Positions 20,880-41,461 of a DNA stretch of 64,000 bases are shown piece after piece. The DNA is from Bdellovibrionales bacterium. Its GTDB lineage: Bacteria > Pseudomonadota > Alphaproteobacteria > Micavibrionales > UBA2020. Below the pieces are notes generated by a model. The model ran no database searches. It saw only the letters and a list, made by a program, of their open reading frames with translations, and was not told the origin of the DNA. A program made the translations under genes and the position numbers. Every line of letters starts with the position of its first letter. Within the stretch, counting starts at the first letter, position 1. The DNA is taken from contig JBBRVE010000002.1 in NCBI GenBank assembly GCA_038247245.1, forward strand, positions 10,173-74,172, in the 5' to 3' direction.

Positions 20880-20956
20880 GCGCCCATAGCTCAACTGGAT
20901 AGAGCATCTGACTACGAATCAGAAGGTTAGGAGTTCGAATCTCTTTGGGCGCACCA
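20880..20956 (+). tRNA. tRNA-Arg (anticodon ACG)
   Basis: Hand-folded cloverleaf: acceptor GCGCCCA/TGGGCGC, D-arm GCTC..GAGC, anticodon stem TCTGA/TCAGA with loop CTACGAA, T-arm AGGAG-TTCGAAT-CTCTT, and an encoded CCA. Confidence 0.95.
20912..20956 (+). repeat. attL core (3' 45 nt of the intact tRNA-Arg)
   Basis: CTACGAATCAGAAGGTTAGGAGTTCGAATCTCTTTGGGCGCACCA, identical to 41603-41647. Confidence 0.9.
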
Positions 20957-24803: not shown

Positions 24804-25286
24804 TCAACTTACGCCGCCCCTCGTCGAAGAGGCGAGCCTTAATAGTATTTTGTCAGCTGACTGTTTAAATGAATGATACACCTCCAAACCTTCTCTTCTT
24901 ATAGCAACGTCAAGTTTGGCACTAAGTTGCTGGAGTATATTGCTTGCATCTTCAACTTTTCCTTGACGCTCACAATACAAAGCAAAATATATTTCAAGAG
25001 AGCCTTCTCGCTCAAGATTGGTGTATCCAAGCGCTATAACGTTATCATGTAATTCCTTCACCATCGAGAACTGCGCGTTATGATCGCAAAAGAGCATCAT
25101 TTTCCACTCTGCCACTCTGCGTCTGACCTCCAATTTTGATTCTTCCGACGACGCTAACGCTAGACAAGTTTCTTCCGCCTCATTTAGAGTGGGTCCAATT
25201 TCGGCTATAGGCTTTTCGAACGCACGAGCTGCAGTTGTATCCAATATTCTCGCGATTCTTCTGGATTCATTCTCACTATTTGTCAT
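24804..25286 (-). CDS. putative immunity protein of orphan toxin 3
   Basis: 160-aa, helical-looking cytoplasmic protein starting 9 nt after the toxin stop. Low GC. Assigned by position only. Confidence 0.6.
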   Translation of the reverse strand: MTNSENESRRIARILDTTAARAFEKPIAEIGPTLNEAEETCLALASSEESKLEVRRRVAEWKMMLFCDHNAQFSMVKELHDNVIALGYTNLEREGSLEIYFALYCERQGKVEDASNILQQLSAKLDVAIRREGLEVYHSFKQSADKILLRLASSTRGGVS

Positions 25287-25294
25287 TACGCAAC

Positions 25295-25978
25295 CTATTT
25301 TGGTGAGGAAAAATTCCAGTAGTCACATCTGGCTAAACCGCTGCCACTAAGCGTACTAGAGGGCCATTCTCCCTCTCTGACGCATGCCTGCCTGCAAAGG
25401 TCGCAACGTCCGGAATTAGGAGCGCTACCGGGCAGATCATCTAACGATGTGTCCAGACAGCTGACGTAATGCGCCTGACAGCTTTTACCTTCATCCGATT
25501 TTTTAGGGATGGCTGGGGGCGGCGCAGGGGGCGCATCCCCTCCTGTTCGGGGCGATGACTTGTTGCAAGCAGAATTTGGATCTTTATGACATTGTTCAAT
25601 CTGCTTTTGGATGATGTCGGCAACTATGATACCAGTGATTACGAGCACGCACCCTTCCATAACAAGAGCCACTGCATTCCCTGTCGGGTCAATGTTCATC
25701 ACAGGGTTGACGTTGGCGTAGTTGAAGGTGTTGAGGCCGCCATAGATGCCGATAGGGTCGGATGAGATATAGCGGCCAACAGTTGCCTCTGACGCAGCTT
25801 CGCCGTACCGAGGGGCATTTTCTCTAGACGCTGTAAGAGCTTGCGGATAAAAATTTCTGCCGCGCCTGCCACTTCCGTAAAAAATTTTCTCTGACGCGCT
25901 TTTTTCCGCGCGCAGCGACATTCCGGCGAACATGCCGGGCGGCGGTGCGGATGGCTGCGGGTGCTGGCTAAGAAGCAA
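25295..25978 (-). CDS. orphan Rhs C-terminal toxin cassette 3
   Basis: [35 protein letters not shown], followed by a hydrophobic helix (AVALVMEGCVLVITGIIVADII) and a Cys-rich tail. TTG start with AGGAG 8 nt upstream. Confidence 0.75.
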   Translation of the reverse strand: MLLSQHPQPSAPPPGMFAGMSLRAEKSASEKIFYGSGRRGRNFYPQALTASRENAPRYGEAASEATVGRYISSDPIGIYGGLNTFNYANVNPVMNIDPTGNAVALVMEGCVLVITGIIVADIIQKQIEQCHKDPNSACNKSSPRTGGDAPPAPPPAIPKKSDEGKSCQAHYVSCLDTSLDDLPGSAPNSGRCDLCRQACVREGEWPSSTLSGSGLARCDYWNFSSPK

Positions 25979-26055
25979 GATTATTTCTCCTGCCTCAAGT
26001 TTCCCTCACCGGGGCGCGCGGCGCAAGGGGCGTTTTTTGGCATTGGAGGGCCTTT

Positions 26056-27174
26056 TCAGGCGGTTTGGTCGGGTTCTGCCTCGTCGGCATCCAGCACCCG
26101 CGCAAGGGCTTCCTGCGCCTCCGGGGCGGGCGCGCTGCCGGGCTCATGCTGCGCCCGGTGCAGGCGCGCGGGGTGCGTGGCGGTATGGATGGCTTGCAGC
26201 TTGTCGATGGCGACATGTGTGTAAATCGCCGTGGTTTCCAGTTTTTCATGGCCGAGCATGGCTTGAAGGAAGCGTATATCCGCGCCGCCTTCAAGCATGT
26301 GCGTGGCGCAGGCGTGGCGCAGCAGATGGGTCGCCCCCGGCTTGTTTATCCCGGCGCATTCCATGTACTTCCTCATGCGCGCGGCGATGAAGGCGGGCAG
26401 GCACGGCTCCCCGTAATCGGTCACGAACAGCGCTTCATGCTCGTGCGTGAGCAGCTGCGGCCTGCCTTCGAGCAGGTACTTGTCGAGCCATGCCAGCGCC
26501 CTCTCGCCTATCGGCACCACCCGGTCGCGCTTGTTCTTCCCTTCGCGCACGGCGATAAGGCGGCGGTGGAAGTCGGCGTCATAAATGGCAAGGTTCGCGG
26601 CCTCCGTCCGGCGCAGGCCCGTGCTGTACAGCAGTTCCAGCAGCGCCCGGTCGCGCAGGCCCATCGGGTCGCTAGGGTCGGCCTCGGCCAGTATCGCCTC
26701 CACCTCCGGGATGGACAGCACCACGCGCGGAAGCCGCTTGCCGTCGCGCGGAATGTCCAGCTCGGAAGCCGGATTGTAAAGGATATGGTTTTCTCTCGCC
26801 AGCCAACGGAACCAGAGTTTCAGCGGCACAAGGCAGCCCATTTGTGTGCCGGAGGTGAGCGGCTTTCCGTCCGGCTTGCGGTAGTAAAACAGATGCCGCT
26901 GGTAACGCTCCACCACCTGCTTGCTCACATCGGCGGGTTTCATCAACCCGCGCTCGTCGCACCACACGATAAAGCGCCGGATGGCGACGCGGCGCGACTG
27001 CACGGTGTCGGCGCTGTAGCCGTGCACGGCCAGCCATTCCAGATGTTCGTGCATGTAGGGCAGCATCGGGTGGTCTGCAAGCGGGTCGCGGGCCGCTGCT
27101 TGCGGCGGGCGCGGCGGCTTGCGCGCGTTGCGTTTGCGCGTCTTGATGCGCCAGCGCAGGCCCTTGGTTGTCAT
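26056..27174 (-). CDS. tyrosine-type site-specific recombinase (XerC/D-like)
   Basis: 372 aa. Motifs GLRRTEA, HLLRHACATHMLEGGADIRFLQAMLGHEKLETTAIYTHV (R...H..R...Y catalytic set). The start overlaps the upstream stop (ATGA). Confidence 0.92.
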   Translation of the reverse strand: MTTKGLRWRIKTRKRNARKPPRPPQAAARDPLADHPMLPYMHEHLEWLAVHGYSADTVQSRRVAIRRFIVWCDERGLMKPADVSKQVVERYQRHLFYYRKPDGKPLTSGTQMGCLVPLKLWFRWLARENHILYNPASELDIPRDGKRLPRVVLSIPEVEAILAEADPSDPMGLRDRALLELLYSTGLRRTEAANLAIYDADFHRRLIAVREGKNKRDRVVPIGERALAWLDKYLLEGRPQLLTHEHEALFVTDYGEPCLPAFIAARMRKYMECAGINKPGATHLLRHACATHMLEGGADIRFLQAMLGHEKLETTAIYTHVAIDKLQAIHTATHPARLHRAQHEPGSAPAPEAQEALARVLDADEAEPDQTA

Positions 27175-30158
27175 GGATACGACACGGCGGCGGGGCCGTG
27201 GCCGTTCAGGGCGCGCGATTCAGGGGCGGATTCCGCGTTTTGCGCGGGAATGGCTGTGGCTATTGGGTTTTCTGCGTTTTCGACGCCCCGACCGCCCGCC
27301 GACAAGGGGCCGACTGGCCCCCGACCGGGGGCCGACCGCGCGGCATTTAACCCCGACCGGGTTTTGTCGTAGTCGAGTTTTGCCGGGTCGATAAGCCCGG
27401 ACAGATGCGGCGCGGCGTTGTCGTCGCCGTCATGCAGCAGCTCGTAATGGAACAGTCCCGCAGGCCCCCGGTGCAGCAGCAACAGCTCAAGGTCGGCAAG
27501 CCGCGCAAGATGCACTTTTAGCTGCGTGTCGGAGACGCCCGTATGGTCGCGCAGCTCCTTGCGGCTAAAGCGAATGTCCCGAGGCGGTAGCTTCCTTGCG
27601 GCAGCGCGGGCCTGCACCATCTGCCGGATGAGGCGCAGCAGCCGCCTTGTCTGCGGCGGCAGCTCGTCAAGGGAGCGGCCAAGGACTTCATGCGCCAGCG
27701 TGGTTGCGCGCGCAATATCCTCGCGCGTGGCCTCGATGTAGGAGATTGTTTTCTCGCCTTGGGTAAACGTGCGGATGGGCCGCTGGTGCTGGTGCAGCAG
27801 CGCAATCACGTCGATAAGAGTCAGATACTTTTCATGGTCGCGGCGGGTGCGCGTCCGGTCGTCAAGGAAGGTCAGGCGGTCGGCGTATGGGTTCACCACG
27901 AACAGCGGCTGCAGGAGCCGCTGCGCGTTCTGTTGCAGGGCCAAGATCCCGGTTTTCGCGGCCTTGGCCTGCAAGCCGTCGAGCGTTCTTTTAGCCCGCT
28001 GCTTCTCATGGATGGCGCGGGTCTGCTCCCGCCCTTCATCCACCGCCAGCACAAGGCAGCGGTTCATCAGCTCTTCGTCAATGTCGATGGCCGTGGTCGT
28101 CGTTATCAGCGCGGCGGGGCCTTCGACTCTGTATTCCTGCGTCACCAGATTGCCGTTGGCGTCGGCTCCGGTGCTGGCAATCACCAGCTCTCCCTCGGAT
28201 TGCAGCAGCTTCAACGCATAGGCGGCGCGCTGCGCGCCCTGTTCCTCCGCTATCGCCAGCACTTTGTTTTTAAGCGCGTCCTTGCCCATGTAGTACAGGC
28301 TCTGCCCGGTCACGGCGCTGTATTTCACCTTGTGGTCGTCGGGCATGAAGGCCAGCACCGCGTCCATGACGGAAGTTTTCCCGCCCGCGCTGCTCGACTG
28401 GATAACGACGCCAAGCGGGTTTTCCAGCTTGCGCGAAGTCGCGGCAAGATAGGCCGTCAAGACGTTGGTTTCCTCGCCCACCATCCCGCAGCGCACGAAG
28501 TCGGCCAGAATGCGCTCTATCAGGTCAGGCGCGCGCAGCAGCGCAAGCGCGGCCTCGCGCTCGTCCTCCGTCATGTCGGGGGTCGCGGGGTCTTTGGGCG
28601 CAAGCGCCTTGTTAATCTCGTCGTCCTGCACTTCTTCGAGCTTCAGCAGGACGCGGCCCAGCTCCGCTTTCAGCTCATCCTCCTTCGAGCGTAATTCGTG
28701 CGCGGCTGCTTGCGTGAACACCGCGCGGGCGCGGGCGGCGTAGAGGTCAAGCGTATCAACATGGAACAGGTCGCCTTGGCTCACCATCACAATGACTTTC
28801 AGGACGCCCACAGAGAGATTTTTGGGCAGGCCCCGGATGCGCCAGCGGCGCGCGCCGAAGGTCAACAGCACTTCCCGTTCGTTCACCGCGGCGTCGAGGT
28901 CGCAACGCGGCGCAGGCGGCATGGGTGATGCCGGCATGACAGCCGGCGCCGGATTCATAGCAGCTAAAGAAGATGGCACAGCTTCTTTAGTCGCCTCTTG
29001 TGGCGCAGGCTCGACCACGGTCAGTTCAGGCTCCTGCACATCCCGCGCGGGCGCTGTTCCGCTGCCGAGCCATTCGGCCTTGCGGATAAGAGCGCCAAGG
29101 CTTTTATTCGCAGGCTGCACTTTCAGCGCGTACTCGTTGGCGTCAACGCCTTGCGGGAACATGATGCGCCAGCATTCGATTCCAGCCTCCATCAGCTGCG
29201 CCGCAACCTTGGCAGCGCCCCGGTCGCCTGCCTCGTCGCGGTCGAAGGCGATTAACACGCGCTTGATGCCGTGGGTTTTAAAGGCGGTCAGCATTTCAGC
29301 GGTGAAGCCCTCGACGCCATAGGCGGCAGTCACATTGCGGAAGCCCGCGCACCAGAAGGTCGCGGCGTCCAGCAGGGCTTCGCACAGGATAATTTCTTTG
29401 CTGGCCGTCAATGCCTGCACGTTCCATAGGCCCTTGTGCGGCCCCGGCAGATACAGGTGCAGCGGTGTCCCCTTACGCAAGTTGTTCAGCAGCTTCCGGC
29501 CATAGATTTCCTGCACGTCGCCCTGCGGGCCGAGAATAGGAACAACCAACGAGCCGTTAAAGTGTTCATGGCCGCTTTCGCGGTAGATGCCGAGTTTTTC
29601 CAGCCGCGCGCGGATGGCTGCGCCTTCTTTCCGGGTTTTGTCCGGCAGGCGCAGGCCCAAGCTGCGGTCGGCAAGGCCGAGTTTGAAGGTGTCGATCAGC
29701 TCCGCGTTGTCCAAGCCGCGCTCTTTCAGGTAGGCGAGAGCTTCCGGCGATTGTTTCAGGCGGCTGTGATAATAGGCAACAACATCAGCCAGCAGCTTGT
29801 TGTCCTCCGCGTCCACCGTCACAGGCGCGGGCAAGGCCCGCACCGTGCTGCGTTTTACCGGGGCCTCTGTCACTTCGGACAGGCCCTCACGCAGCAGCTC
29901 GACCGCATGACGGAAGCTGACGCCGTTTTTCTTCATCACCCAGTCGACAACGCCGCCGCCAGCGCCGCAGCCGAAGCAGTTAAACAGGTTCTTGTCGCCG
30001 GATACGCGGAAGGATGGTGTCTCTTCCTCGTGGAACGGGCAGAGGCCCACATGGTCTTTGCCCTGCTTGGTCAGTTCCACGCCCGACGATTCGACCAGAC
30101 GCAGCAGCGAAGTTTCATTTTTTAGCCGCTCTATCTCTGCATCCGGGATTCTCGCCAT
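27171..30158 (-). CDS. DNA primase (zf-CHC2 plus Toprim) fused to a P-loop NTPase/helicase-like domain and a C-terminal DNA-binding region
   Basis: 995 aa. Zinc finger CPFHEEETPSFRVSGDKNLFNCFGCGAGG, Toprim ILCEALLDA...AFDRDEAGDRGA, and Walker A-like QSSSAGGKTSV. Confidence 0.85.
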   Translation of the reverse strand: MARIPDAEIERLKNETSLLRLVESSGVELTKQGKDHVGLCPFHEEETPSFRVSGDKNLFNCFGCGAGGGVVDWVMKKNGVSFRHAVELLREGLSEVTEAPVKRSTVRALPAPVTVDAEDNKLLADVVAYYHSRLKQSPEALAYLKERGLDNAELIDTFKLGLADRSLGLRLPDKTRKEGAAIRARLEKLGIYRESGHEHFNGSLVVPILGPQGDVQEIYGRKLLNNLRKGTPLHLYLPGPHKGLWNVQALTASKEIILCEALLDAATFWCAGFRNVTAAYGVEGFTAEMLTAFKTHGIKRVLIAFDRDEAGDRGAAKVAAQLMEAGIECWRIMFPQGVDANEYALKVQPANKSLGALIRKAEWLGSGTAPARDVQEPELTVVEPAPQEATKEAVPSSLAAMNPAPAVMPASPMPPAPRCDLDAAVNEREVLLTFGARRWRIRGLPKNLSVGVLKVIVMVSQGDLFHVDTLDLYAARARAVFTQAAAHELRSKEDELKAELGRVLLKLEEVQDDEINKALAPKDPATPDMTEDEREAALALLRAPDLIERILADFVRCGMVGEETNVLTAYLAATSRKLENPLGVVIQSSSAGGKTSVMDAVLAFMPDDHKVKYSAVTGQSLYYMGKDALKNKVLAIAEEQGAQRAAYALKLLQSEGELVIASTGADANGNLVTQEYRVEGPAALITTTTAIDIDEELMNRCLVLAVDEGREQTRAIHEKQRAKRTLDGLQAKAAKTGILALQQNAQRLLQPLFVVNPYADRLTFLDDRTRTRRDHEKYLTLIDVIALLHQHQRPIRTFTQGEKTISYIEATREDIARATTLAHEVLGRSLDELPPQTRRLLRLIRQMVQARAAARKLPPRDIRFSRKELRDHTGVSDTQLKVHLARLADLELLLLHRGPAGLFHYELLHDGDDNAAPHLSGLIDPAKLDYDKTRSGLNAARSAPGRGPVGPLSAGGRGVENAENPIATAIPAQNAESAPESRALNGHGPAAVSYP

Positions 30159-30307
30159 TTTCGGGGGTTCCTTCTAAAACCTGTCAAGAGGTGGGCCGGG
30201 TCAAGCGGCTAAAAATTAACCTGATTGAGTTTTACGTCATATGCTTGTAAAGTCAACAAGGATGAACATAGTTTCAGGGCGCTTATCCAGAATCGGAGGT
30301 TAGTATC

Positions 30308-30706
30308 ATGGTCGCATTAGAGAACCAGCAATCGGGTGTCGCTATGGGCCAGTCTCTTTCTCAGGACGAGAAGATTTATTTTAAAACGCTCGGCGCGCGC
30401 ATCGCGCAGCGCCGCGAAGAACTCGACCTGACACAGCAACAGGTCGCGGACGCCCTGCACCTGACACAGCAAACCTATGCGGCTTATGAGGTTGGCCGTC
30501 ACAGGCTGCCCGTTTCCCTGCTTCCCGTCCTCTCCGAAGTCTTGTCGATAGAGGTGGAAGTATTGCTTGGGATGGCCGCGAAGAACGCAAAGCGCGGCCC
30601 CGCGCCGAAGTACCAGCAGCAGATTGAGCAGATAAGCCGCCTGCCTAAACCGCAGCAGCGTATGCTGACGGACGTAATCGACGGCCTCCTGCTAAAGTTC
30701 GGCTGA
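30308..30706 (+). CDS. XRE-family transcriptional regulator
   Basis: HTH LGARIAQRREELDLTQQQVADALHLTQQTYAAYEVGRHRLPVSLL. Divergent from the primase operon. The start may be MGQSL at 30344. Confidence 0.85.
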   Translation: MVALENQQSGVAMGQSLSQDEKIYFKTLGARIAQRREELDLTQQQVADALHLTQQTYAAYEVGRHRLPVSLLPVLSEVLSIEVEVLLGMAAKNAKRGPAPKYQQQIEQISRLPKPQQRMLTDVIDGLLLKFG

Positions 30707-30783
30707 CGGAGGCAACATTTTTATTTCGCCCGCCTGCTCTCTACCGGGAGCGGGATGGGGAATCATTAGCAGCTAAGAAAAGA

Positions 30784-32358
30784 CTATCCTGCTTTACGCA
30801 CCGCGCCGGGTGACGCCCGCGCGGCTGCGCCTCTGCCTTCCGCGCCTTCGGGCGGGACAAGCCGCGATAGCAGCTCTTTCGTTTGCAACACGTTACGCCG
30901 CAGCGCCACGGTCGCAAGCGCCGGGTTCAAGGCGATTGCGGCTTGCTGCCGCACGATAACGGCAGGCGGCGGCCCGCGCGCGGCTCGGCCCTCGGGCAGA
31001 TTAAGCGCGCGCAACAGTTCCGCGTTGCTCTGGCGTTGCAGGCGCGTCGTAAAGGCAACCTCGTTGAACGACGCCGACAGCGGAACTTTCATGATGATGG
31101 TGTAAGGCGGCATCCCGTTCAGCAGCAGGCCCATGCGGTAGATATTCCGTTCCAGCTCCCGGTTCACGGCCTGAATGCGCTCTGTCTCCCGCCGCTGGCG
31201 CTCCAGCGTTGACATTTCTTCGGCCACCCTGCGGAAGGCATCCATTTTTTGCTCAAGCTCTTTTTGCCGTTCCTCGGCGGCCTGCTGGCGGCGGGTGCGC
31301 TCCTGCAACCATTCGCTTTCCTGCCGCTGCATGATGCGCGCCCATGCCCGCTCCAGCAACAGGCGGATGCGGGTGATGAACCCTTCCGGCAGCGCCGCGC
31401 TGCCGATAGACGCCTCCAGCAGCGCAATGTCGTTTGACATCGAGGACAGCCGCGCCTCCATCTGCGCCACTTGCTCCAGCAGCGCACGGATGGCCGGGGT
31501 CGGCTTTACCCTGTTGGCCTGTTTCGCTTGCTGCTCGGCCACCACGTCGCGGTATTGCTGAATCTGCACAATCTCCGCGTTGTATTCCGCGCGGGTGCGG
31601 CCTTGGTCGATGGCGGGATAATCCACCTCCCGCCCGTTCTTCTCGCGCTTTGTGACGCTGCCCTGTTTCGGCTTCGTGCCCTTGCGGTGCATCGCCATCG
31701 AGGTCACGCCCACATGGGTCTGCGGCGGCGTCATGATGCCGCGCGCCTTGTGGCTGCGGTGGTCGATGCGGGCGCTGTGTCCGGCTTTCTCAAGCGCCGT
31801 ATTCGCCAGCGCCTCCCATGTCTTGCGAAGCTCGATGATTTCGGCGGGGCCGCTGCGCTTGCCGTCCAGCACCCGCGTTTTCTTGCCAAGCCCGCCGCCG
31901 TCCACCTCGCGCACGGTCATTTGCAAGTGGGCGTGGTAATTCCACGGGTTGCCCTCGGCATGGGGGCGGTGCATAGCAACATCGACCGCCACGCCGTACC
32001 GCTTGAGCAGGTGGAAGGCGAAGGCCTGCACAAGCGCCCGCATCTGCGCCTCGTTCAGCTCGTGCGGCAGGGCAAGCACGACCTCGCGCGCCACCCGCGC
32101 GTCTTTGCGCTTCTCGGCGGCCTCGGCCATGTTCCACAGCAGGGCATGGTCGGCCAGCCAGGGCGGCGCGCCTTCAGGCAGCAGGATGAAGGTTTCCATG
32201 ACGCCGTGCCGGGGCCGGAAGTCATAGGCCCGGCCCGACCGCTCGTCAATCAGCAGCGTACCCGTCCGATAGGCGGCGAAGGCAACCGCGCTCCGGGTCA
32301 CGCCCGGAACCTTCGAGGCGCGGCTGATGGCCTTCACGCTGCAATGAAAGATCGCCAT
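30784..32358 (-). CDS. MobA/MobL-family (MobQ-type) conjugative relaxase
   Basis: N-terminus MAIFHCSVKAISR, motif EVVLALPHEL, HxH motif NYHAHLQM and ALEKAGHSARIDHRS all parallel RSF1010 MobA (MAIYHLTAK, EVEFALPVEL, NPHCHLMI, ALERAGHDARIDHRT). Confidence 0.88.
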   Translation of the reverse strand: MAIFHCSVKAISRASKVPGVTRSAVAFAAYRTGTLLIDERSGRAYDFRPRHGVMETFILLPEGAPPWLADHALLWNMAEAAEKRKDARVAREVVLALPHELNEAQMRALVQAFAFHLLKRYGVAVDVAMHRPHAEGNPWNYHAHLQMTVREVDGGGLGKKTRVLDGKRSGPAEIIELRKTWEALANTALEKAGHSARIDHRSHKARGIMTPPQTHVGVTSMAMHRKGTKPKQGSVTKREKNGREVDYPAIDQGRTRAEYNAEIVQIQQYRDVVAEQQAKQANRVKPTPAIRALLEQVAQMEARLSSMSNDIALLEASIGSAALPEGFITRIRLLLERAWARIMQRQESEWLQERTRRQQAAEERQKELEQKMDAFRRVAEEMSTLERQRRETERIQAVNRELERNIYRMGLLLNGMPPYTIIMKVPLSASFNEVAFTTRLQRQSNAELLRALNLPEGRAARGPPPAVIVRQQAAIALNPALATVALRRNVLQTKELLSRLVPPEGAEGRGAAARASPGAVRKAG

Positions 32359-32703
32359 GAGCGGCTTTCATCCTCCCTTAAAAACGCGCTGTATCGTGCC
32401 GCAGAAAGGCGCGTACTGCGCGGGGGCCGCTAAAAAAAGCGGCCCGCATTCGAAGCGCGCCGACATGATGCGAAGAGCATCAGGTGGGCGGGCTTCGCTC
32501 CCGGCTAGAAGTGCCGGGATGCGCGCTCTCGCGCGCCGCATGGTCAAGCGTCCCAACATCGGCGGGAGCTTGACCGGGTTTCCAAAGGGGCGTACAAGCC
32601 CCTTGTGTTCAGGTGTCGGGGCGAACAGCCCTGACATGCAGCCGCCACAAGGAACGGTGAAGGCTGCCGAGTGCAGAGGCGTTTCGCCTTTGCCGCGCGT
32701 GCG

Positions 32704-32738
32704 TTGCCCCGCTTGAGGGGGCAATGCGTAAGTGCGCC
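32704..32738 (+). promoter_or_regulatory. candidate oriT: inverted repeat plus MobQ nick motif
   Basis: TTGCCCC-gcttgag-GGGGCAA, followed 4 nt later by TAAGTGCGCC, which matches the RSF1010/R1162 nick region TAAGTGCG/CCCT. Lies about 350 bp upstream of the relaxase gene. Confidence 0.65.
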
Positions 32739-33179
32739 TTTAATCAATTCTATGCTTCGTCGCAGGTGGTCATCGGTTAGTCGTCCGGTGGTGAAGTGAG
32801 TTTTTTCGCGCAATACAGCGTCTCCGGCTGTCTGGTGATTTTTACAGCCGTTGCACTTAACCCGGCATTACGGGTTGCGCTGAATCTTGCTCTTACCTCG
32901 AGTCTAAGGCGCGGCAGCTTGACCAATGGTTAAAGTTTTTGGAATCAACACGCTCGGACAGGGGAAGGAATATCGGGGTGTTCCTCGATACGGCGCGACT
33001 CGGGTGGGTCGCGCTTGTGTATTACAAAGCTCATGCGGCGGCGCAATATCCCGCGCCGACTGCATTCAGTTTTTGCGGGTTTTCTTTTTCAGGGGTCGGC
33101 CCCGCGCGGCAGCGCGGGCCGGGGTTGAGGGGCGCTCGCCCGGCCGGGCGGCAGGCCCGGACGCAAGAGCGGGGCTCGC

Positions 33180-33560
33180 TCAGGGGACGTCTTTCCAGTA
33201 AAAAAACGGCCCACCAATGTAGAGCAGAAGAATCACAAAATAGAACAAGAGCACCGTATTAATAACCGTATTCGTTCCGCCCTTGAAAAACTTCAATGAC
33301 ACCGAGTAGTAAAAAGCACATCCTAGAAAGTAAACTAGGGGGTATTTCTCAATCGCCCTGCATTGTGCGCTGAAAAAATGAAACACTGGAGGCCAAATCG
33401 ATCCGAGTTCCATAGCTGTCTCGTAGAGCAGCCGAAAGGCGGATCGACTGAATACGAAGAAGATAATTGCAATGGCAATGAAACCTAAATTGAATCTTTC
33501 AATAAAGTGACCGAATTCAAACCCCTTTAGAAAATTTATTATTCTGCGCTGCATCCGCAT
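33180..33560 (-). CDS. putative immunity protein of orphan toxin 2 (multi-pass membrane protein)
   Basis: 126 aa with about 4 hydrophobic helices. Its start overlaps the toxin 3' end by 22 nt. Low GC. Confidence 0.6.
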   Translation of the reverse strand: MRMQRRIINFLKGFEFGHFIERFNLGFIAIAIIFFVFSRSAFRLLYETAMELGSIWPPVFHFFSAQCRAIEKYPLVYFLGCAFYYSVSLKFFKGGTNTVINTVLLFYFVILLLYIGGPFFYWKDVP

Positions 33561-34132
33561 GAACCCTCCTTGTCTAAAAGCGGGTCCAATTTGCTGTAAA
33601 TATCTGTCATGATGCCGTACTTAGCGCGCAACGCTTGAGTAGCTTCGTGGATAAATAACCTTGCTGCTTCCTCTCTACTCCAGCCAAGAGACCTGACGCT
33701 CATGCCCATAGTTTGGTCCGGTTGGCCCGGAAACCCATACTGCGGAAGAAACCTAGGTTCCCAATTAGTGTGACCAGCCCCCCCATTTGCAGTGAAGAAG
33801 GTATTATCCTCCCAAAATGAATGGGGATAATAGCCAAAGTTAAAGCTCACTACATTCGTAAAAAACATATCCTCTAAGGTTTGATTGTCCTTACGAAGTT
33901 GTTTCCTAAACCAGTCGCCGAGGGCGCTACATTTCAGCCTATTGTAGGCTTCTTCGATAATTTCATCTTTGGTAGCAGGGTCGCCCACGCCGGAGTTCAC
34001 GTCTATGAATTTTAAACCTAGTGGGTCAATCGCATTGACCGGATTCTGCCCAACATAGCCGAAGGTGTTGAGGCCGCCAGCTATTCCGATTGGGTCGCTG
34101 CTGATATAGCGGCCTACATTCAGAAGTTCCAA
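33539..34132 (-). CDS. orphan Rhs C-terminal toxin cassette 2
   Basis: Begins [40 protein letters not shown], then a unique ~150-aa domain. TTG start directly after the upstream stop, with GGAG 4 nt upstream. Confidence 0.8.
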   Translation of the reverse strand: MELLNVGRYISSDPIGIAGGLNTFGYVGQNPVNAIDPLGLKFIDVNSGVGDPATKDEIIEEAYNRLKCSALGDWFRKQLRKDNQTLEDMFFTNVVSFNFGYYPHSFWEDNTFFTANGGAGHTNWEPRFLPQYGFPGQPDQTMGMSVRSLGWSREEAARLFIHEATQALRAKYGIMTDIYSKLDPLLDKEGSCGCSAE

Positions 34133-34588: not shown

Positions 34589-35275
34589 TTACTGCTTTGG
34601 CGGCGTACAAATCCCGCCAGCCTCCGGGACACATTGATAATCATTTTTAAGAGCTTTAAGAAAATATGGCGTGACGAATGGTGATACCGCTGGATCAACA
34701 ACAAAAGGTAGTGGGCAAACGGGCATTGGGCCGTTAGCAGTGCCTTTCATTTCCAAGCCCAGCATATCGAGCGGTCCGCCCGGGGCAACGAAACTGCAAG
34801 CTGTTCCTTGATCGTACACGCAGTCGTATTGCCCCCACTTCACCACAGGAGATTTGGGATCATCTGGATCAGCAGGAGCGTAAGTTATCCCGCCGAAATT
34901 ATAATCAGGTTGGTAAATTCCTAACTGTGTAAGAGCGGGGTCTTTCTCAGTAACTTCGGGAGCATGTGCAGTGCAAACTAAATACTTATCAGATGGGCAA
35001 AGTCCCATAAAGTCAAAAAACCCAACAGGATTAGCTTTTACGTAGAGGAAAGTGTTGAGGCCGCCAGTGAGTCCGATAGGGTCGGACGATATATAGCGGC
35101 CTATATTTATGGCAACCTTGTTATCGCGCTCGGGTTGCTGATACGTATGGTCGGGACAAAGGTTGCCGCTGTCGTCGTACTCGCCTTGCAGCAACTGGGC
35201 AACCGCGTCGTAGTTATATGCCGTCGCGCTGCCGGGGGCGTGTCGGTCAGAAAAATCGTGAAGATCGCGCGGCAA
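34589..35275 (-). CDS. orphan Rhs C-terminal toxin cassette 1
   Basis: [35 protein letters not shown], followed by a Cys-rich ~160-aa domain. TTG start with AAGGA 6 nt upstream. The 5' leader is homologous to that of cassette 4. Confidence 0.8.
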
Positions 35276-35338: not shown

Positions 35339-35578
35339 TTATTCTTTGCGTCGCAACTCCCACAAACGCCCTTTCAGAGCGGCAACAGCTTTTTCAAAAT
35401 CTGTAAGTGCAAACTTCCAAGTACCGCCATCCTTGGGACTAAATATTTCAATCTGCATTTCGTCAAAGCCTTCTTCTTGAGTCATGACGCATACTATCTG
35501 ATCGTCAAAATATAGGTCGCCAACAAGGTCCTCGTGGTCGGGATCACTACCTACAGTAATGCGGAAACGCGGGTTCAT
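35339..35578 (-). CDS. putative cognate immunity protein of the full-length Rhs toxin
   Basis: 79-aa acidic protein. Its ATG overlaps the rhs stop (ATGA). Confidence 0.65.
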   Translation of the reverse strand: MNPRFRITVGSDPDHEDLVGDLYFDDQIVCVMTQEEGFDEMQIEIFSPKDGGTWKFALTDFEKAVAALKGRLWELRRKE

Positions 35579-38500
35579 GGTTCTAAGAATCCCATGAAAT
35601 TACCTCCGGCATCATATCGCGCGCCGCCGCCAAGCGAACCGCCATAATAATCTGTTCCGCCAAACCTGTTACTACTTGTCCTCTTCACATTTCCCAATAT
35701 ATCGTTAAGAAGCTCTTGGCCTTTAGAATTCTTGGCGGCGACGTTTCCTGTCGCCTCTGGGAATACTGTTCCTTCACGACGCCCATGCTTTTCTAATGCA
35801 CGACCTGCTTTCGTTAACTGTCCACCTTTATCTATAGCTTGCCCTGCTTTGCGAAGCGCCTCTATATCACCGTGGCAATTCTGTGCGCTCTTGCGGAACG
35901 CGCCCTTAAGAATTCCACCTGCTCCGCTAACAACTCCTGCTCCAGCTGCCGCTTCTATGCCTGTGGTGAGTGGGCCCCATGGATTTATCTGATATTCAAT
36001 ATCCCCGGTCACATCTGGCGCGTTGGCGTAGTCCGCATAGAAAATAATACCAGCGGCGAAGGCAAGGGGGATGAAGAAAAATTCCCCGGTCGGGTCAACC
36101 CAGTTCACCGGGTTCTGCCCGACATAGCCGTAGGTGTTGAGGCCCCCGGCAAGACCGATGGGGTCAGAGGATATATAGCGGCCAAGCGTCGGATCATAGT
36201 CGCGCATGTAGTTGTAGTGGAGGCCGGTTTCGGCATCCGCGAACTGGCCAGGGAAGCGCAAGTTGCTCGCTGCCGCTCCCGACGTTGCATAGGTTTCGCC
36301 GAACGGCTCCTGCTGGCGGTCCCAGACGACGGCTTGCGTCGCGTCGGTCATTTTCTGGGGCGTGTTGAGGTGGTCGGGGTGGACGTAATAGATCGTGCCC
36401 GCCGCCTCGATCTGCGCCAGCGGTATGTTGCCGAGCCAGATGTATTCGCGCAGGTTGGTGCCGCTGCCATCTGATTCAGCTATCAGGCGACCGACTTCGT
36501 CGTAGTGAAAGTGGACGGTCGTCGTGCCGTCGGATTTGCTGACGCGCTGGCCAAGCGCATTGACCTTGTAGGTCGTGGTGGTGCTGCCCACCAATACGGA
36601 TTCAAGTCGGTTGCGCCCACCATAGGTGAAACTCACGTCGGGGTCGGTGGCGCGGTTGTCTGTCGCGGTATTGCCCGATGCCGTATAGGTGAAGCTGCGC
36701 GTGTTCGTGCCGTCGTTGATGCTGGAAAGCTTGTTGCTGCCGCCCGGCAGGGTCGAGGTCTGCGTGACGCCGCTTTTCACGCGCGTCAGGCGGTTGGCGT
36801 TGAAGTCATAGGTGTAATCGACCGTTCCGTAAGCGCCGACTGCCTGGCTGAGCCGGTTCAGCGTATCGAGCGTAAAAGTCTGGTTACGGCCAGATGCAAG
36901 GTTGTCGGTGATCGCCGTAATGTTGCCTGCGTTGTCATAGGCGATATCGAGGTCCTGCACATGCGTCGCTCCGTCCTCCGTCACGATATCCGTCAGCCAG
37001 TAGTTCTGGTCGAATGTCCGCGCCAGTGTGAGGCTGTTGCCGTAGGTTAGTCCTTTCAGCGGCCCGAAAGGCTCATACGTGATGCTTGATGCCAGCGTCG
37101 CGGGCGTGCCCGTGCTGGTCGCCACCGTGATGATCTTGCCGTGACTGTCATAGGTATAAGTCACAGTGCGCCCAGACGGATAGGTGACTTGGGTCACGCG
37201 GTTGGCGACATCATAGGCATAGGCCGTCGTGTAGGTCTGCGCGCCGATAGTGCGGACGCTTTGCGTCACGTTGCCCACATCGTCATAGGTGAGCGCCGTC
37301 GTGCCGCTTTCATCGGTGATGCCCGTCAGCCGCCCGACGCCCTTGTTGCCGCCCGATGTACTGTCATAGGTGAAGGCCATGTTTTCGCCGGAATAAGCCG
37401 GGAAGGTGACGGTCAGGGGACGGTTGAGCGCGTCGAAGGTACGGTTGGTAACGACGCCACGCGCATCGGTCTGGCTGGTGACGTTTTCCGCGAGGTCGTA
37501 GTTATAGACGGTCGTGCCGGTGTCGGGGCTGGTGGCCTGAATCACGCGGCTGAAGCCGTCATAAATGTAAGTGGTGGATAGTGTGCGGAAGTCGCTCTGG
37601 CTCGTCGCGTTGTCGCGGGAGTCGTAGCCGGTCGATGCCACTTTCGTCAGCGGATCGGTAACGGTTATCAGGCGGTCGAGCGCGTCGAACGCCATGTTTG
37701 TGGCATTGCTGCGCGCGTCCGTTGCCCGCGTACGGTTGCTGTTGGCGTCGTAGAGATAAGCGGTCGCCTGCGGCGAAGACGCGCCTATGTTTTTCTTGAG
37801 CCGCGAAATCTCGTCGAATTCGCGTGCCTGTTTCGCCCGCAGGGCTGGGGTCGCGTTTTTAACGTCTTCCTGAATAATGTTTCCGTCGGCATCCAGCGTG
37901 TATTCGATGCGCTCGCCCGCTTCGTTCTCGACCGCCGTCAGGCGTTGCGCATTGTCGTAGGTGTAGGTGAGTGTGGTCGCATCGGGCAGCGTGATCAGCG
38001 TCACCAGACCCGCCAGGTCGTAATCAATCGTCGTGACCTGATTACCCGCCGTCGCATTCACCGTGTAGGTCTTCAGCCGCCCCAGATCGTCATAGGTGAG
38101 ATCGGTCACAAGGCTGTTTGGATCGGTGAAGGACAGCGGCCTGCCCATGTTGTCGTAGGAAGTGATCGACGTGACCTGGCTGAGCGCGTTCGTGACGGTC
38201 GCAAGGTTTTTTTCCGTGCTGGTGTAGGTATAGGTCGTCGTGTCCGTCAGATCGGTGCGCGGGCCATCCGCCGTCAGCACGTTTCCGAGCGCGTCATAGG
38301 TATTGGTCCAGGTGCGGTTATTTCCCGTGGTGGTGTAGGGAACGGTCTGGGTTTGGCTGTCGGTCTGCTTGTAAGTGAGCCTGTTGCCAGCGGCGTCATA
38401 GGTCATGTCCACGGTCAGCCCGGTACGCGTGACCTGCGTCGGCAGACGCAGAGTCGTGTCCCAAGTCGTGCCGATGGTACGCGCCTGCGCGCCGCCGAAG

Positions 38501-39972
38501 GCTTCGGTGCGGCTCGTTTCCAGCCCCGCCGAGGAAATGGTGTGTTTGGTGACGTTGCCCTTCCAGTCAGTGTAATTCGCGGCGAAACCGTTGGCGTTGT
38601 AGGTGAACTGGGAATTTGCGGCGGGGACCGATCCCACGGCAAGGCGGTCGATGCGCGTGACTTTCGGCATGCTCTGGAGCGTTGAAAACGTGTATTTGTC
38701 CTGGCCGCCGAGCGGGCCGGTGACGGTTCTGGTGCCATCGACGTTGTAGGTGATGGTGGTCAGGCCTGCGCCGCCTGCGTGCTGGCTGGAAGTTGCCCGC
38801 CCGGTCGTGCTGTCATATGCCCATGTGGCGTAGCGGTTGCCCAGCTCGTCCGTGATGCCTGTCAGGTAGGTGGGGAAATTCGTGTCTTCGTAAAGATACG
38901 TGATGACCGGATTATCCGTTAGGCTGGGCGTGCTGTCGGGATACGTGACGGTCGATAAAATTTTCGTCAGCGCAGTGGTGCTCGGATAAGCATTGACGTA
39001 GCCGTACGTGTAAACCTCGCCGTTCGGGTCGGTCACCGTGTCCACCAAGCCGTCGCCATTGTAGGTGAGCGTCAGCGAGCGGCCCAGATTATCGGCAACC
39101 GTCGTGAGCTTGCCGGAGCTATAGGTGAGGGTCTGCGTGTATCCGTCAAGAAAGGCAATCGACTGCAATACGCCGGTGCTGTTGTAGGTCTCAACCGTTT
39201 TGTCGCCATCCGTCAGCAGCCAGTTGCTACCGGACTGGACGAGTTTGAGGACCACGTCGGTGTCGGAACTCCACACGCCACCCGACTTGTTAAAAATAGC
39301 CCGCTGTCCGTCGCCGCGCCACGCGCCCCATTTGGTAGAGCCGCTGTTTTCGAGAAAGCGCTCGTAAATGTTCCGCCAGCCTGGCCCCATCACGCCGTTC
39401 GTCAGGCGGATCTGGCTGTTATAGGTCCGCGCGAAAATGAGCGGGTGCGCGCCGGAGCCTTGGATATCGATCTTGGTCTCGAATTTATTGCCTGTGCTGA
39501 CGGTAATCGGATTGCCGCATTGGGGTTTCGAGACCCAGGGCGCATCTCCGCTCACGCCCTCTCCCAATGCAGGATCTGGGCACGCCGCGCCAAATGTCTT
39601 ACGCCCCGCTGAAACCGAGCAGCCGGATGTTGACCACGCATTTTCATCAAGGCCTGACGGGCAGCCCGACCGGATACTGAGGCTGCGGGGCAAAGTCAGG
39701 TAAAAATATTTGCAGATCCACATCGGGTGGCTGTCGCCGAACACGTCCACGCGAGATCCCATCACGAGGTCTCCGTAGGGTGATGCGTAATACGCTTTGA
39801 TGCCATCGCAGACCAATTGCGCCGTCTGGCACGAATAGCCGGGTCCCGCCCCTTGGCATCCGGAAATCAGTTGAGGGCTCGTTTCCCAGTAATACGTCTG
39901 GGCTTGCGAGGGGGACGATATGAATAGAAAGGCGAGCACAACGCCAAGCGTCATTCGGTTGAAATGTTTCAT
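35575..39972 (-). CDS. Rhs/YD-repeat polymorphic toxin with Sec signal peptide and variable C-terminal toxin domain
   Basis: 1465 aa. Signal peptide MKHFNRMTLGVVLAFLFISSPSQA, a Cys-rich ~140-aa region, the shell start GNPITVSTGNKFE, dozens of YD/RHS repeats (Y.YD..G....) and the core end [38 protein letters not shown], followed by a ~190-aa tail. Confidence 0.95.
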   Translation of the reverse strand: MKHFNRMTLGVVLAFLFISSPSQAQTYYWETSPQLISGCQGAGPGYSCQTAQLVCDGIKAYYASPYGDLVMGSRVDVFGDSHPMWICKYFYLTLPRSLSIRSGCPSGLDENAWSTSGCSVSAGRKTFGAACPDPALGEGVSGDAPWVSKPQCGNPITVSTGNKFETKIDIQGSGAHPLIFARTYNSQIRLTNGVMGPGWRNIYERFLENSGSTKWGAWRGDGQRAIFNKSGGVWSSDTDVVLKLVQSGSNWLLTDGDKTVETYNSTGVLQSIAFLDGYTQTLTYSSGKLTTVADNLGRSLTLTYNGDGLVDTVTDPNGEVYTYGYVNAYPSTTALTKILSTVTYPDSTPSLTDNPVITYLYEDTNFPTYLTGITDELGNRYATWAYDSTTGRATSSQHAGGAGLTTITYNVDGTRTVTGPLGGQDKYTFSTLQSMPKVTRIDRLAVGSVPAANSQFTYNANGFAANYTDWKGNVTKHTISSAGLETSRTEAFGGAQARTIGTTWDTTLRLPTQVTRTGLTVDMTYDAAGNRLTYKQTDSQTQTVPYTTTGNNRTWTNTYDALGNVLTADGPRTDLTDTTTYTYTSTEKNLATVTNALSQVTSITSYDNMGRPLSFTDPNSLVTDLTYDDLGRLKTYTVNATAGNQVTTIDYDLAGLVTLITLPDATTLTYTYDNAQRLTAVENEAGERIEYTLDADGNIIQEDVKNATPALRAKQAREFDEISRLKKNIGASSPQATAYLYDANSNRTRATDARSNATNMAFDALDRLITVTDPLTKVASTGYDSRDNATSQSDFRTLSTTYIYDGFSRVIQATSPDTGTTVYNYDLAENVTSQTDARGVVTNRTFDALNRPLTVTFPAYSGENMAFTYDSTSGGNKGVGRLTGITDESGTTALTYDDVGNVTQSVRTIGAQTYTTAYAYDVANRVTQVTYPSGRTVTYTYDSHGKIITVATSTGTPATLASSITYEPFGPLKGLTYGNSLTLARTFDQNYWLTDIVTEDGATHVQDLDIAYDNAGNITAITDNLASGRNQTFTLDTLNRLSQAVGAYGTVDYTYDFNANRLTRVKSGVTQTSTLPGGSNKLSSINDGTNTRSFTYTASGNTATDNRATDPDVSFTYGGRNRLESVLVGSTTTTYKVNALGQRVSKSDGTTTVHFHYDEVGRLIAESDGSGTNLREYIWLGNIPLAQIEAAGTIYYVHPDHLNTPQKMTDATQAVVWDRQQEPFGETYATSGAAASNLRFPGQFADAETGLHYNYMRDYDPTLGRYISSDPIGLAGGLNTYGYVGQNPVNWVDPTGEFFFIPLAFAAGIIFYADYANAPDVTGDIEYQINPWGPLTTGIEAAAGAGVVSGAGGILKGAFRKSAQNCHGDIEALRKAGQAIDKGGQLTKAGRALEKHGRREGTVFPEATGNVAAKNSKGQELLNDILGNVKRTSSNRFGGTDYYGGSLGGGARYDAGGNFMGFLEP

Positions 39973-41459: not shown

Positions 41460-41461
41460 TT

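What the first reader, a model, noticed from the sequence alone, without database searches (positions are those of the whole stretch)
25990..33180. Mobilizable element nested inside the toxin array, itself inside a tRNA island
A block that is visibly more GC-rich than the flanking low-GC cassettes sits exactly between immunity gene 2 (stop at 33180) and orphan toxin 3 (start at 25978). It encodes four proteins: a tyrosine recombinase; a 995-aa zf-CHC2/Toprim primase with a P-loop domain, whose stop overlaps the recombinase start (ATGA); a divergent XRE repressor; and a MobA/MobL relaxase. This gives three nested layers of mobility (chromosome, tRNA-Arg island, IME). The arrangement could physically mobilise adjacent orphan toxin modules by conduction or imprecise excision. 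I could not define the insertion's att repeats by eye.
Basis: partly seen in the sequence, partly recalled or inferred. Interest (0 to 1): 0.7.

Follow-up and report, generated by a model that had tools for sequence, protein, structure and literature searches.

The report
Mobile element that swaps Rhs toxins
The GC-rich block is the backbone of a small mobile element that inserts at the boundary between the shell and the toxin tip of Rhs toxin genes and brings its own toxin and immunity genes, which may be the long-sought vehicle by which bacteria acquire new Rhs toxins.

Summary
Four intact genes lie in a GC-rich block (0.62-0.66 against 0.47-0.51): a Xer-like recombinase, a 995-aa primase, an XRE regulator and a MobQ relaxase. 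The block sits inside an Rhs orphan-toxin array, itself in a tRNA-Arg island. The interpretation needs revising. The ends are not at 25990 and 33180. They lie in the GRYI-coding core (GGCCGCTATATC) of two toxin tips, at 34103-34114 and 25766-25777. The unit is therefore at least 8.3 kb and includes 'orphan toxin 2 + immunity 2' as cargo. Primase relatives occur at 205 places in species-representative genomes. Where flanks suffice, 20 of 27 loci have an Rhs tip upstream, often ending a full-length Rhs gene, and 15 of 21 have one downstream behind a conserved 125-nt module. Tandem copies (Sphingobium scionense, 100% identical, 11-nt shared core), circular assemblies and an 11.3-kb Lonsdalea plasmid show the unit. 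Contigs from one metagenome break exactly at the window's tip cores. A k=31 simulation reproduces these breaks only when precise excision products are added. Catalysis by the recombinase, replication and mobilisation are inferred. The relaxase and oriT are unique to this member. I found no published description.

The parts
20880..20956 (+). tRNA-Arg(ACG), the attachment site of the outer 20.7-kb island
   Evidence: ARAGORN; Rfam tRNA, 70.5 bits
41603..41652 (+). Distal direct repeat of the tRNA 3' part (partner at 20912-20961), the far end of the outer island
   Evidence: 50 nt, 96% identical (family D6)
40149..41465 (-). P4-type tyrosine integrase of the outer island
   Evidence: Arm-DNA-bind_3, Phage_int_M and Phage_integrase domains
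35575..39972 (-). Main Rhs gene (1465 aa). Its C-terminal toxin (tip 0) starts at 36183
   Evidence: RHS_repeat 4.5e-44, DUF6531 and RHS domains; tip map
36170..36183 (-). Tip 0 core, GGCCGCTATATATC (codons GRYI). A Logan contig starts here, and it is a possible outer left end of a three-cassette unit
   Evidence: L084 starts exactly at 36183; simulation; L085 links the stub to the cassette block
35088..35101 (-). Tip 1 core, GGCCGCTATATATC (orphan toxin 1)
   Evidence: L084 ends at 35088 and L083 starts at 35101
34103..34114 (-). Tip 2 core, GGCCGCTATATC. This is the left junction (attL) of the minimal 8.3-kb unit
   Evidence: The left and right copies are identical from 0 to +12. L083 ends at 34103 and L078 starts at 34114. 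Simulation
33539..34132 (-). Toxin 2 (Rhs tip plus C-terminal toxin), the cargo toxin
   Evidence: Rhs_assc_core 1e-10. The only other full-length homologue among 5.8 billion clusters follows a related stub
33180..33560 (-). Immunity 2 (126 aa, hydrophobic), the cargo immunity gene
   Evidence: A 55%-identical homologue follows the toxin-2-like gene in L087. Contigs L077 and L078 link it to the element's non-coding region
32701..32743 (+). oriT-like site: inverted repeat GCGTTGCCCC/GGGGCAATGC followed by GTAAGTGCGCCTT
   Evidence: Inverted repeat I4. TAAGTGCGCC is unique in the window. The published MOBQ consensus is NWACCNNTAAGTGCGCCCTYNN (PMC3832669)
30784..32358 (-). MobQ-family relaxase (524 aa)
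   Evidence: Pfam and NCBIfam matches above cut-off. No relative of it occurs in any of the 75 related loci
30308..30706 (+). XRE/HTH_3 regulator, divergent from the primase
   Evidence: The same position is conserved in relatives
27171..30158 (-). Primase (zinc ribbon, Toprim, and a C-terminal half with the Walker-A-like SSSAGGKTS)
   Evidence: 205 relatives in species-representative genomes
26056..27174 (-). Xer-like tyrosine recombinase (372 aa). Candidate catalytic residues are R188/R189, H283, R286, H309 and Y318
   Evidence: NF002331 at 447 bits against a cut-off of 371; motifs read from the sequence
25780..25904 (-). Conserved 125-nt 'stub' module with three direct repeats GCGTC(T)AGAG, starting at 25897, 25831 and 25795. 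Probably recombinase or accessory binding sites (the P arm)
   Evidence: Alignment of 18 copies. An nhmmer profile finds it in 38 of 76 sequences, always on the same strand after Int. Repeats
25766..25777 (-). Tip 3 core, GGCCGCTATATC. This is the right junction (attR)
   Evidence: L076 starts exactly at 25777. In L085 the stub is identical up to GGCCGCTATAT and then joins another toxin
25295..25765 (-). Toxin 3, the displaced resident toxin, now read from a start inside the stub (ORF 25295-25978; the NCBI call starts at 25933)
24804..25286 (-). Immunity 3 (putative), partner of the displaced toxin
   Evidence: Position; found on L076

Best explanation
The block is the backbone of an integrative, mobilizable and probably self-replicating element. 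Its attachment site lies inside Rhs toxin genes, where the shell-coding core meets the toxin tip.

**Circular form (inferred).** The element would carry one open reading frame made of a short element-specific stub, the tip motif, a toxin and an immunity gene.

**Integration (inferred).** The element's Xer-like recombinase would recombine a short core in this frame (GGCCGCTATAT(C/A), codons GRYI, in this lineage) with the same core in a resident rhs gene or orphan tip.

**Result (shown by anatomy).** The element's toxin and immunity genes are joined in frame to whatever lay upstream. The previous toxin is pushed behind the element and fused to the stub. This is C-terminal displacement.

**In this window.** The minimal unit runs from 34114 to 25778 (8337 bp). 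In order it holds toxin 2, immunity 2, oriT, MobQ relaxase, XRE, primase, recombinase and stub. The unit may extend to 36183 (10.4 kb, three cassettes).

**Other inferred steps.**
- The primase keeps the excised circle alive.
- XRE controls the primase-recombinase operon.
- The relaxase and oriT, which only this member has, let a co-resident conjugative system transfer the element.
For: **Family anatomy.**
- Primase followed by recombinase is conserved in 75 loci from many phyla.
- A same-strand Rhs tip lies 1.4-3 kb upstream of the primase in 20 of 27 loci that have enough flank. One lies downstream of the recombinase in 15 of 21.
- The upstream tip ends a long Rhs ORF in L001 (1415 aa), L007 (1730), L071 (1328) and Ralstonia solanacearum Po82 (at least 1260).
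- The downstream tip follows a conserved 125-nt module, found in 38 of 76 sequences.

**Definition of the unit.**
- L060 (Sphingobium scionense DSM 19371) holds two copies, 100% identical, with a period of 6360 nt. Its three junctions share an 11-nt core.
- L027 is a tandem with a period of 6907 nt. The cargo toxin is repeated and a different toxin follows the last stub.
- L066 is also a tandem.
- L012, L046 and L003 have exact terminal overlaps, as circular assemblies do.
- Lonsdalea populi carries an 11.3-kb circular plasmid with XerC, the primase, an HTH regulator and tip-led toxin and immunity cassettes.

**This window.**
- The left and right copies share only GGCCGCTATATC.
- Contigs from run SRR19962013 are 100% identical to the window. 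They start or end exactly at the tip cores: 36183-35088, 35101-34103, 34114-, 25777-.
- A k=31 graph simulation gives no break for the window alone. It reproduces all observed ends once stub|toxin 2 and prefix 2|toxin 3, plus a cassette-0 circle and deletion, are added.
- In L085 the stub is identical to the window's up to the core and then joins a different toxin.
- The only other toxin 2/immunity 2 homologues follow a related stub.
- All four backbone genes are full length.
Against: - No read or contig that spans stub|toxin 2 (attP) or prefix 2|toxin 3 (attB) was recovered. The graph breaks could reflect co-existing strain variants rather than ongoing excision.
- Recombinase catalysis is inferred from position only. 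The core differs between lineages: GGCCGCTATAT here, GCCGCAAAAGA in L060, around YNY in many Betaproteobacteria, and further downstream in Po82.
- In some members the Rhs-like homology beside the stub is long, up to about 140 nt in L032 and L041. That would also allow homologous recombination.
- In the window, toxin 2 has only 18 open codons upstream, so it is not fused to an Rhs shell.
- L085 puts the stub upstream of the toxin 1 and toxin 2 cassettes, so the extent of the unit (8.3 or 10.4 kb) is unresolved.
- L086 has a stub with no recombinase nearby.
- About a quarter of backbone relatives have no tip.
- The window comes from a 94-kb NCBI contig. Matching contigs occur in metagenomes, so it may be a metagenome bin that shows one of several co-existing paths.
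Confidence: 0.75

Rival explanations
1. A 7.2-kb mobilizable element inserted by chance between immunity gene 2 and orphan toxin 3. Its att sites are unrelated to the toxins, which are bystanders.
For: The sharp GC step at about 33190 coincides with the stop of immunity 2. The toxin cassettes are low in GC, like the rest of the array.
Against: - No direct repeat exists at 25990/33180.
- The association with tips is family-wide and keeps orientation and spacing.
- Tandem and circular units include the toxin cassette.
- The stub module continues to 25780 and abuts the tip core.
- Low GC is a property of toxin cassettes everywhere, so it does not mark the boundary.
Confidence: 0.05
2. The element enters and leaves rhs loci by RecA-dependent homologous recombination through the shared tip sequence, as in the 2009 circular-intermediate model. 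The recombinase would serve another purpose, such as dimer resolution of the plasmid form.
For: - Xer-like recombinases commonly resolve plasmid dimers.
- The Rhs-like homology next to the stub varies from 0 to about 140 nt between lineages.
- Orphan Rhs toxin expression arising by recombination with the main gene has been selected experimentally in Salmonella (Koskiniemi 2014, as cited).
Against: - Shared identity at the junctions is only 11-14 nt in the window, L001 and L060. From general knowledge, this is far below what RecA needs.
- Switch points fall exactly at the cores.
- A conserved three-repeat module sits directly next to the core in 38 sequences.
Confidence: 0.12
3. The primase-recombinase block is a resident, domesticated cassette-shuffling platform of Rhs loci, comparable to a chromosomal integron, rather than a transferable element.
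For: Contig breaks at tips 0 and 1 suggest recombination between cores that are not the element's own ends. Arrays hold several cassettes.
Against: - The distribution is patchy across phyla at 52-73% identity.
- There are circular assemblies and a free plasmid.
- Tandem copies are 100% identical.
- An identical stub occurs in a different context.
- This member carries a relaxase and oriT.
Confidence: 0.06
4. Assembly artefact. The GC-rich block was wrongly joined into the Rhs array in a metagenome-derived contig.
For: The right junction (stub|toxin 3) is seen only in the window's own record (P0001). Tip repeats break assemblies.
Against: - Independent contigs cross the left junction (L082, 35118-34002) and link immunity 2 to the element's non-coding region (L077, L078).
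- The same architecture occurs in complete genomes of cultured strains (Ralstonia Po82, Sphingobium scionense).
Confidence: 0.03

Closest known systems
Integrative mobilizable elements (recombinase plus relaxase/oriT, no transfer apparatus of their own)
   Same: The element has a tyrosine recombinase, a MobQ relaxase and an oriT-like site but no type IV secretion genes. It is flanked by a short direct repeat and nested in another island.
   Different: The attachment site lies inside a polymorphic-toxin gene, and integration fuses the cargo in frame to the host protein. The element has its own large primase. The relaxase module occurs in this member only, out of 76 examined.
Rhs C-terminal displacement and orphan toxin arrays (Jackson et al. 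2009, PMC2935791; Koskiniemi et al. 2014)
   Same: The outcome is the same. A new tip replaces the expressed one and the old tip is shunted downstream, building arrays. A circular intermediate carrying a tip was postulated.
   Different: [quoted passage not shown] Here a recombinase-bearing, primase-bearing carrier with 11-14-nt cores is identified.
Integrons (IntI, attI, attC cassettes)
   Same: In both, a tyrosine recombinase would insert promoterless cassettes at an expressed position. Silent cassettes accumulate downstream, and cassettes may exist as circles.
   Different: The recombinase scores 117.6 bits against the integron-integrase cut-off of 265. No attC-type hairpins were seen. Expression comes from translational fusion to the Rhs shell. 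The platform itself is mobile.
Recombinase-associated immunity arrays and 'Rhs-associated integrases' (Zhang et al. 2012, PMC3482391; Steele et al. 2017, PMC5727410)
   Same: Xer-like recombinases or integrases lie next to toxin and immunity arrays, and a role in cassette capture was suggested.
   Different: Those reports give no att site, no element boundaries, no primase and no mechanism.
P4-like satellites and phage-inducible islands (integrase, repressor, primase-helicase)
   Same: The backbone logic is shared: a recombinase, a divergent repressor and a large primase.
   Different: No capsid-redirecting or packaging genes were found. The target is not a tRNA. No full-length relative of the primase occurs in 50,697 phage records.

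Membership tests
Integrative mobilizable element | Site-specific recombinase encoded at one end | tested here: met
   Int at 26056-27174. Phage_integrase 6e-41; NF002331 at 447 bits against a cut-off of 371; the R..HxxR..H..Y motifs are present
Integrative mobilizable element | Direct repeats (att core) at both ends | tested here: met
   GGCCGCTATATC at 34103-34114 and 25766-25777. Relatives have three-junction tandems with a shared core
Integrative mobilizable element | Relaxase and/or oriT without a complete conjugation apparatus | tested here: met
   MobQ at 214.7 bits against a cut-off of 200. The oriT-like site keeps the invariant TAAGTGCGCC and follows an inverted repeat. No other transfer genes lie among the ORFs of the unit
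Integrative mobilizable element | Excision to a circle and an empty site | tested here: inconclusive
   Contig ends in SRR19962013 match a simulation that includes the excision products. Relatives give circular assemblies and one plasmid. No junction-spanning sequence was recovered for this member
Integrative mobilizable element | Transfer with the help of a conjugative element | not testable with these tools
   This needs a mating assay
MOBQ relaxase / oriT | Relaxase scores above the curated family threshold | tested here: met
   NF041496 at 214.7 bits against 200; PF03389 at 193 bits against 26.7
MOBQ relaxase / oriT | oriT consensus NWACCNNTAAGTGCGCCCTYNN next to the relaxase gene | tested here: met
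   Window 32722-32743 reads CAATGCGTAAGTGCGCCTTTAA. It matches 13 of 16 specified positions and lies 364 nt upstream of the relaxase gene
Integron | IntI-type integrase | tested here: not met
   TIGR02249 at 117.6 bits against a cut-off of 265; NF011946 at 81 bits against 435
Integron | attC hairpin recombination sites bounding each cassette | tested here: not met
   Cassettes are bounded by the coding tip core. No attC-like inverted repeats appear in the repeat scan
Rhs toxin locus with orphan tips | Full-length Rhs gene with YD repeats and a core-end motif, followed by tip fragments each with an adjacent small gene | tested here: met
   The main Rhs matches RHS_repeat at 4.5e-44. Five tips carry the GRYxxSDPIG motif, each followed by a small ORF
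tRNA-targeting genomic island (outer layer) | tRNA gene, a distal direct repeat of its 3' part, and an integrase | tested here: met
   (family D6)
P4-like satellite / phage-inducible island | Helper-phage exploitation genes (capsid size redirection, packaging) | not tested
   No such domains appeared in the Pfam scans of the element's ORFs. No dedicated search was made

The most novel reading that the evidence does not exclude
The family is a mobile 'Rhs-toxin integron'. Its Xer-like recombinase would recombine any two tip cores. Toxin and immunity cassettes would then be excised as circles, shuffled and captured. The platform, with one to several cassettes, would leave, replicate through its primase, move between cells, and plug a new toxin in frame into the recipient's Rhs shell. 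This would be the missing circular intermediate and enzyme of Rhs C-terminal displacement, and the way orphan arrays are built.
Probability: 0.4. Interest if true: 0.9.

Novelty: new variant of a known kind. Interest (0 to 1): 0.8.

Why it matters
**The open question.** How Rhs and other polymorphic toxin genes gain new C-terminal toxins, and how orphan arrays arise, has been open since at least 2009. The accepted model invokes an unidentified circular intermediate and homologous recombination. Its authors remarked that no integrase was known to accompany Rhs.

**What this family offers.**
- A concrete vehicle: a 6-10 kb circle with a primase.
- A candidate enzyme: a Xer-like recombinase.
- A site: an 11-14-nt core at the shell-tip boundary, next to a conserved 125-nt module.
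- Examples in cultured strains where it can be tested: Ralstonia solanacearum Po82, Sphingobium scionense DSM 19371 and a Lonsdalea populi plasmid.

**Wider implications (inference).**
- An element that arms its host with a new weapon and the matching immunity would be favoured through killing of cells that lack it.
- The system is a natural way to swap a protein's C-terminal domain in frame.

Tried and rejected
- **Exact-protein look-ups.** The primase, the recombinase, the long immunity 1 ORF, the 227-aa toxin 3 ORF and P0001 returned nothing. The contig holding the stub in SRR19962013 could therefore not be read.
- **Metagenome scan.** It found no attP or attB contig, only the variant L085.
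- **RNA families.** Rfam at E up to 0.1 over 20500-42000 found only the tRNA.
- **Non-coding stretches.** blastn of the 821-nt non-coding stretch and of the recombinase-stub spacer against the 75 loci found nothing.
- **Relaxase region.** It has only weak DNA similarity (64-70% over 300-500 nt) to plasmid relaxase genes, so no donor plasmid was identified.
- **ORFs after the recombinase in relatives.** ORFs in the roughly 1-kb stretch between the recombinase and the stub are not conserved, and their translations look like GC-rich non-coding sequence.
- **Stub as a protein.** I first read the stub as a conserved peptide (..ENAxxYD..). I now favour DNA-level conservation, because third codon positions are fixed and the motif is a threefold direct repeat.
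- **10.4-kb-only excision.** This model predicts contig starts at 36185 and 25779. The observed starts are 36183 and 25777.
- **Literature.** Ten searches found hints only.
Full report
**1. The observation**

- The GC step is real. One-kilobase windows give 0.62-0.66 between 26001 and 32500, against 0.47-0.51 on either side. The right edge is sharp at about 33190 and the left edge is gradual.
- The four genes are as described:
  - a tyrosine recombinase at 26056-27174;
  - a 995-aa primase at 27171-30158, whose stop overlaps the recombinase start as ATGA;
  - a divergent XRE regulator at 30308-30706;
  - a MobA/MobL relaxase at 30784-32358.
- NCBIfam places the recombinase in a XerC-like subfamily (447 bits, cut-off 371). 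It places the relaxase in MobQ (214.7 bits, cut-off 200).
- The outer island is also real. tRNA-Arg lies at 20880-20956. A 50-nt repeat of its 3' part lies at 41603-41652, next to a P4-type integrase.
- The array holds a 1465-aa Rhs gene and four orphan tips, each beginning with GRYxxSDPIG.

**2. The lead that changed the reading**

- The primase has 205 relatives among species-representative genomes. I kept 75 loci, at 52-69% identity, from Terriglobia and from Alpha-, Beta- and Gammaproteobacteria.
- Primase followed by recombinase is conserved, often with the divergent XRE. The relaxase has no relative in any of the 75 loci.
- Unexpectedly, 'orphan toxin 3' matched many loci through its Rhs tip motif, on both sides of the primase-recombinase pair and on the same strand.
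- With a profile of the tip:
  - 20 of 27 loci with at least 3 kb upstream of the primase have a tip there, typically 1.4-3 kb away;
  - 15 of 21 loci with at least 2.5 kb after the recombinase have one there.
- The upstream tip is the end of a long Rhs ORF in L001 (1415 aa), L007 (1730) and L071 (1328), among others.
- The downstream tip is preceded by a conserved module of about 125 nt. It contains three GCGTC(T)AGAG-type repeats. A profile finds it in 38 of 76 sequences, always after the recombinase and on the same strand.
- In the window this module is 25780-25904. The first 200 nt of the 'orphan toxin 3' ORF therefore belong to the element.

**3. What the unit is**

- *L027.* Three tips are spaced 6907 nt apart.
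  - The first two are followed by the same toxin, and the third by a different one.
  - The first pair diverge only upstream of -33, counted from the G of GRY. The second pair diverge downstream of +14.
  - So the toxin after the upstream tip travels with the element. The toxin after the stub is the displaced resident.
- *L060 (Sphingobium scionense DSM 19371, a cultured strain).* Two copies are 100% identical with a period of 6360 nt. Their three junctions share the 11-nt core GCCGCAAAAGA, with the stub directly upstream of it at the middle and right junctions.
- *L066.* This is a similar tandem.
- *Circular assemblies.* L012, L046 and L003 have exact terminal overlaps of 127, 141 and 99 nt. 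In L012, stub, tip and toxin are contiguous.
- *A free plasmid.* A complete 11.3-kb circular plasmid of Lonsdalea populi carries XerC, the primase (48.5% identical), an HTH regulator and two tip-led toxin and immunity cassettes.
- *Ralstonia solanacearum Po82.* Its megaplasmid shows the integrated form. In order it has a full Rhs gene, cargo, primase (65%), recombinase (67%), stub module and a displaced tip.

**4. The window itself**

- Tip 2 (pos 0 = 34114) and tip 3 (pos 0 = 25777) share GGCCGCTATATC and little else at their starts. The distance between them is 8337 nt.
- Contigs from public k=31 assemblies are 100% identical to the window. In run SRR19962013 they tile the array with ends exactly at the cores:
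  - 36183-35088;
  - 35101-34103;
  - 34114-33101;
  - 25777-23301.
- Consecutive contigs overlap by exactly the 14-nt and 12-nt shared cores. Tip 4 has a different core and is not a break point.
- In run SRR6448212 the contigs cross tips 1 and 2 without a break.
- I simulated the graph.
  - The window alone gives no break.
  - Adding stub|toxin 2 and prefix 2|toxin 3 gives the breaks at 34103, 34114 and 25777. These two junctions are the products of precise excision of the 8.3-kb unit.
  - Adding prefix 1|toxin 0 and Rhs core|toxin 1 reproduces the remaining ends exactly.
- This shows alternative junctions at the cores in that sample. It does not tell active excision from co-existing variants.
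- A JGI contig (L085) carries a stub identical to the window's up to GGCCGCTATAT, then a different toxin and immunity gene. After that comes the toxin 1-immunity 1-prefix 2|toxin 2 block.
  - That block is 100% identical to the window from tip 1 onward.
  - All 29 differences lie in the leader before tip 1.
- Switch points at cores again, and the stub linked to several cassettes, leave two readings open:
  - an 8.3-kb unit;
  - a 10.4-kb unit, 36183 to 25778, with three cassettes.
- The toxin 2 domain has only one other full-length homologue among 5.8 billion protein clusters. It follows a related stub and is followed by a 55%-identical immunity 2 homologue.

**5. Mechanism**

*Shown.*
- The anatomy of the element.
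- The family-wide association with tips.
- Units defined by tandem and circular forms.
- Short shared cores.
- In-frame placement behind full Rhs genes in relatives.

*Inferred.*
- The Xer-like recombinase catalyses the exchange. This rests on its position, on the adjacent repeat module, and on cores too short for RecA.
- The primase replicates the circle.
- XRE regulates the primase-recombinase operon.
- The relaxase acts at an oriT-like site. That site is an inverted repeat at 32701-32727 followed by GTAAGTGCGCCTT, which fits the published MOBQ consensus.
- Expression of the displaced toxin and immunity pair from the stub's start (TTG at 25978 with a GGAG, or ATG at 25933 as NCBI calls it) would keep the host immune to its former toxin. 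This last point is speculation.

**6. Known relatives and novelty**

- The element meets the definition of an integrative mobilizable element. It is not an integron, because the integrase score is below the cut-off and there is no attC.
- Jackson et al. 2009 proposed tip displacement through a hypothetical circular intermediate. They noted that no integrase was known with Rhs.
- Steele et al. 2017 noted 'Rhs-associated integrases' without a mechanism.
- Zhang et al. 2012 noted XerC/D genes next to polyimmunity loci.
- Ten full-text searches found no description of an element with its att site in the Rhs tip. The library is incomplete, so prior description elsewhere cannot be excluded.
- I rate it a new variant of a known kind.

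**7. Caveats**

- The window comes from a 94-kb NCBI contig and may be a metagenome bin.
- The right junction is seen only in that record.
- The core sequence and its exact place within the Rhs C-terminal region differ between lineages.
- About a quarter of backbone relatives carry other cargo and show no tip.

Noticed in passing
L001 9273-9457 (- strand) and 16269-16453 (+ strand): The closest relative (a Terriglobia MAG) has a second, inverted copy of stub plus tip between its cargo cassette and XRE. The inverted copy has the same tip sequence as the Rhs gene's own tip at 7229. This may be the product of an inversion between cores.
   Followed up: partly
L086 2326-3114: A stub-bearing orphan toxin sits in a toxin and immunity array with no recombinase or primase in the 2.3 kb upstream. 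It looks like a relic stub left after loss of the backbone.
   Followed up: partly
window 35101-35275 and 24632-24773; L085 1022-1200; L086 1204-1340: A second conserved cassette leader (LPRD..TAYxYD..G..RDN(K/Q)VAI(N/K)(I/V) before GRY) precedes orphan toxins 1 and 4 and orphans in two other samples. It may be a diverged Rhs core end or the leader of another cassette type.
   Followed up: no
L089 (NZ_CP072857.1, 1-11289): The Lonsdalea populi plasmid is composite. It has one full and one truncated primase, two tip-led toxin and immunity cassettes, two HTH-SymE pairs and a RelE/DinJ pair.
   Followed up: partly
L073 (whole contig, 8355 nt, 131-nt terminal overlap): A circular assembly with the same backbone carries a toxin with a reduced tip (YDPITLHKYLYANADPGNVIDPSG) in place of the full GRY..DPIG motif. 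L026, L063 and L067 have the backbone but no tip, and carry other cargo.
   Followed up: partly
window 20957-24000: The tRNA-proximal part of the outer island holds a 311-aa HTH_36/LexA-like DNA-binding protein (22040-22975) and unassigned ORFs. The island's integrase lies at the end far from the intact tRNA.
   Followed up: no
window 9500-11500: A second low-GC stretch (0.45-0.49) lies outside the island. It was not examined.
   Followed up: no
window 32357-32724: Two overlapping ORFs of 118-119 aa on opposite strands lie in the non-coding stretch upstream of the relaxase. Pfam, run only on the minus-strand ORF, found no match. They are probably spurious, because the oriT-like site lies at their edge.
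   Followed up: partly
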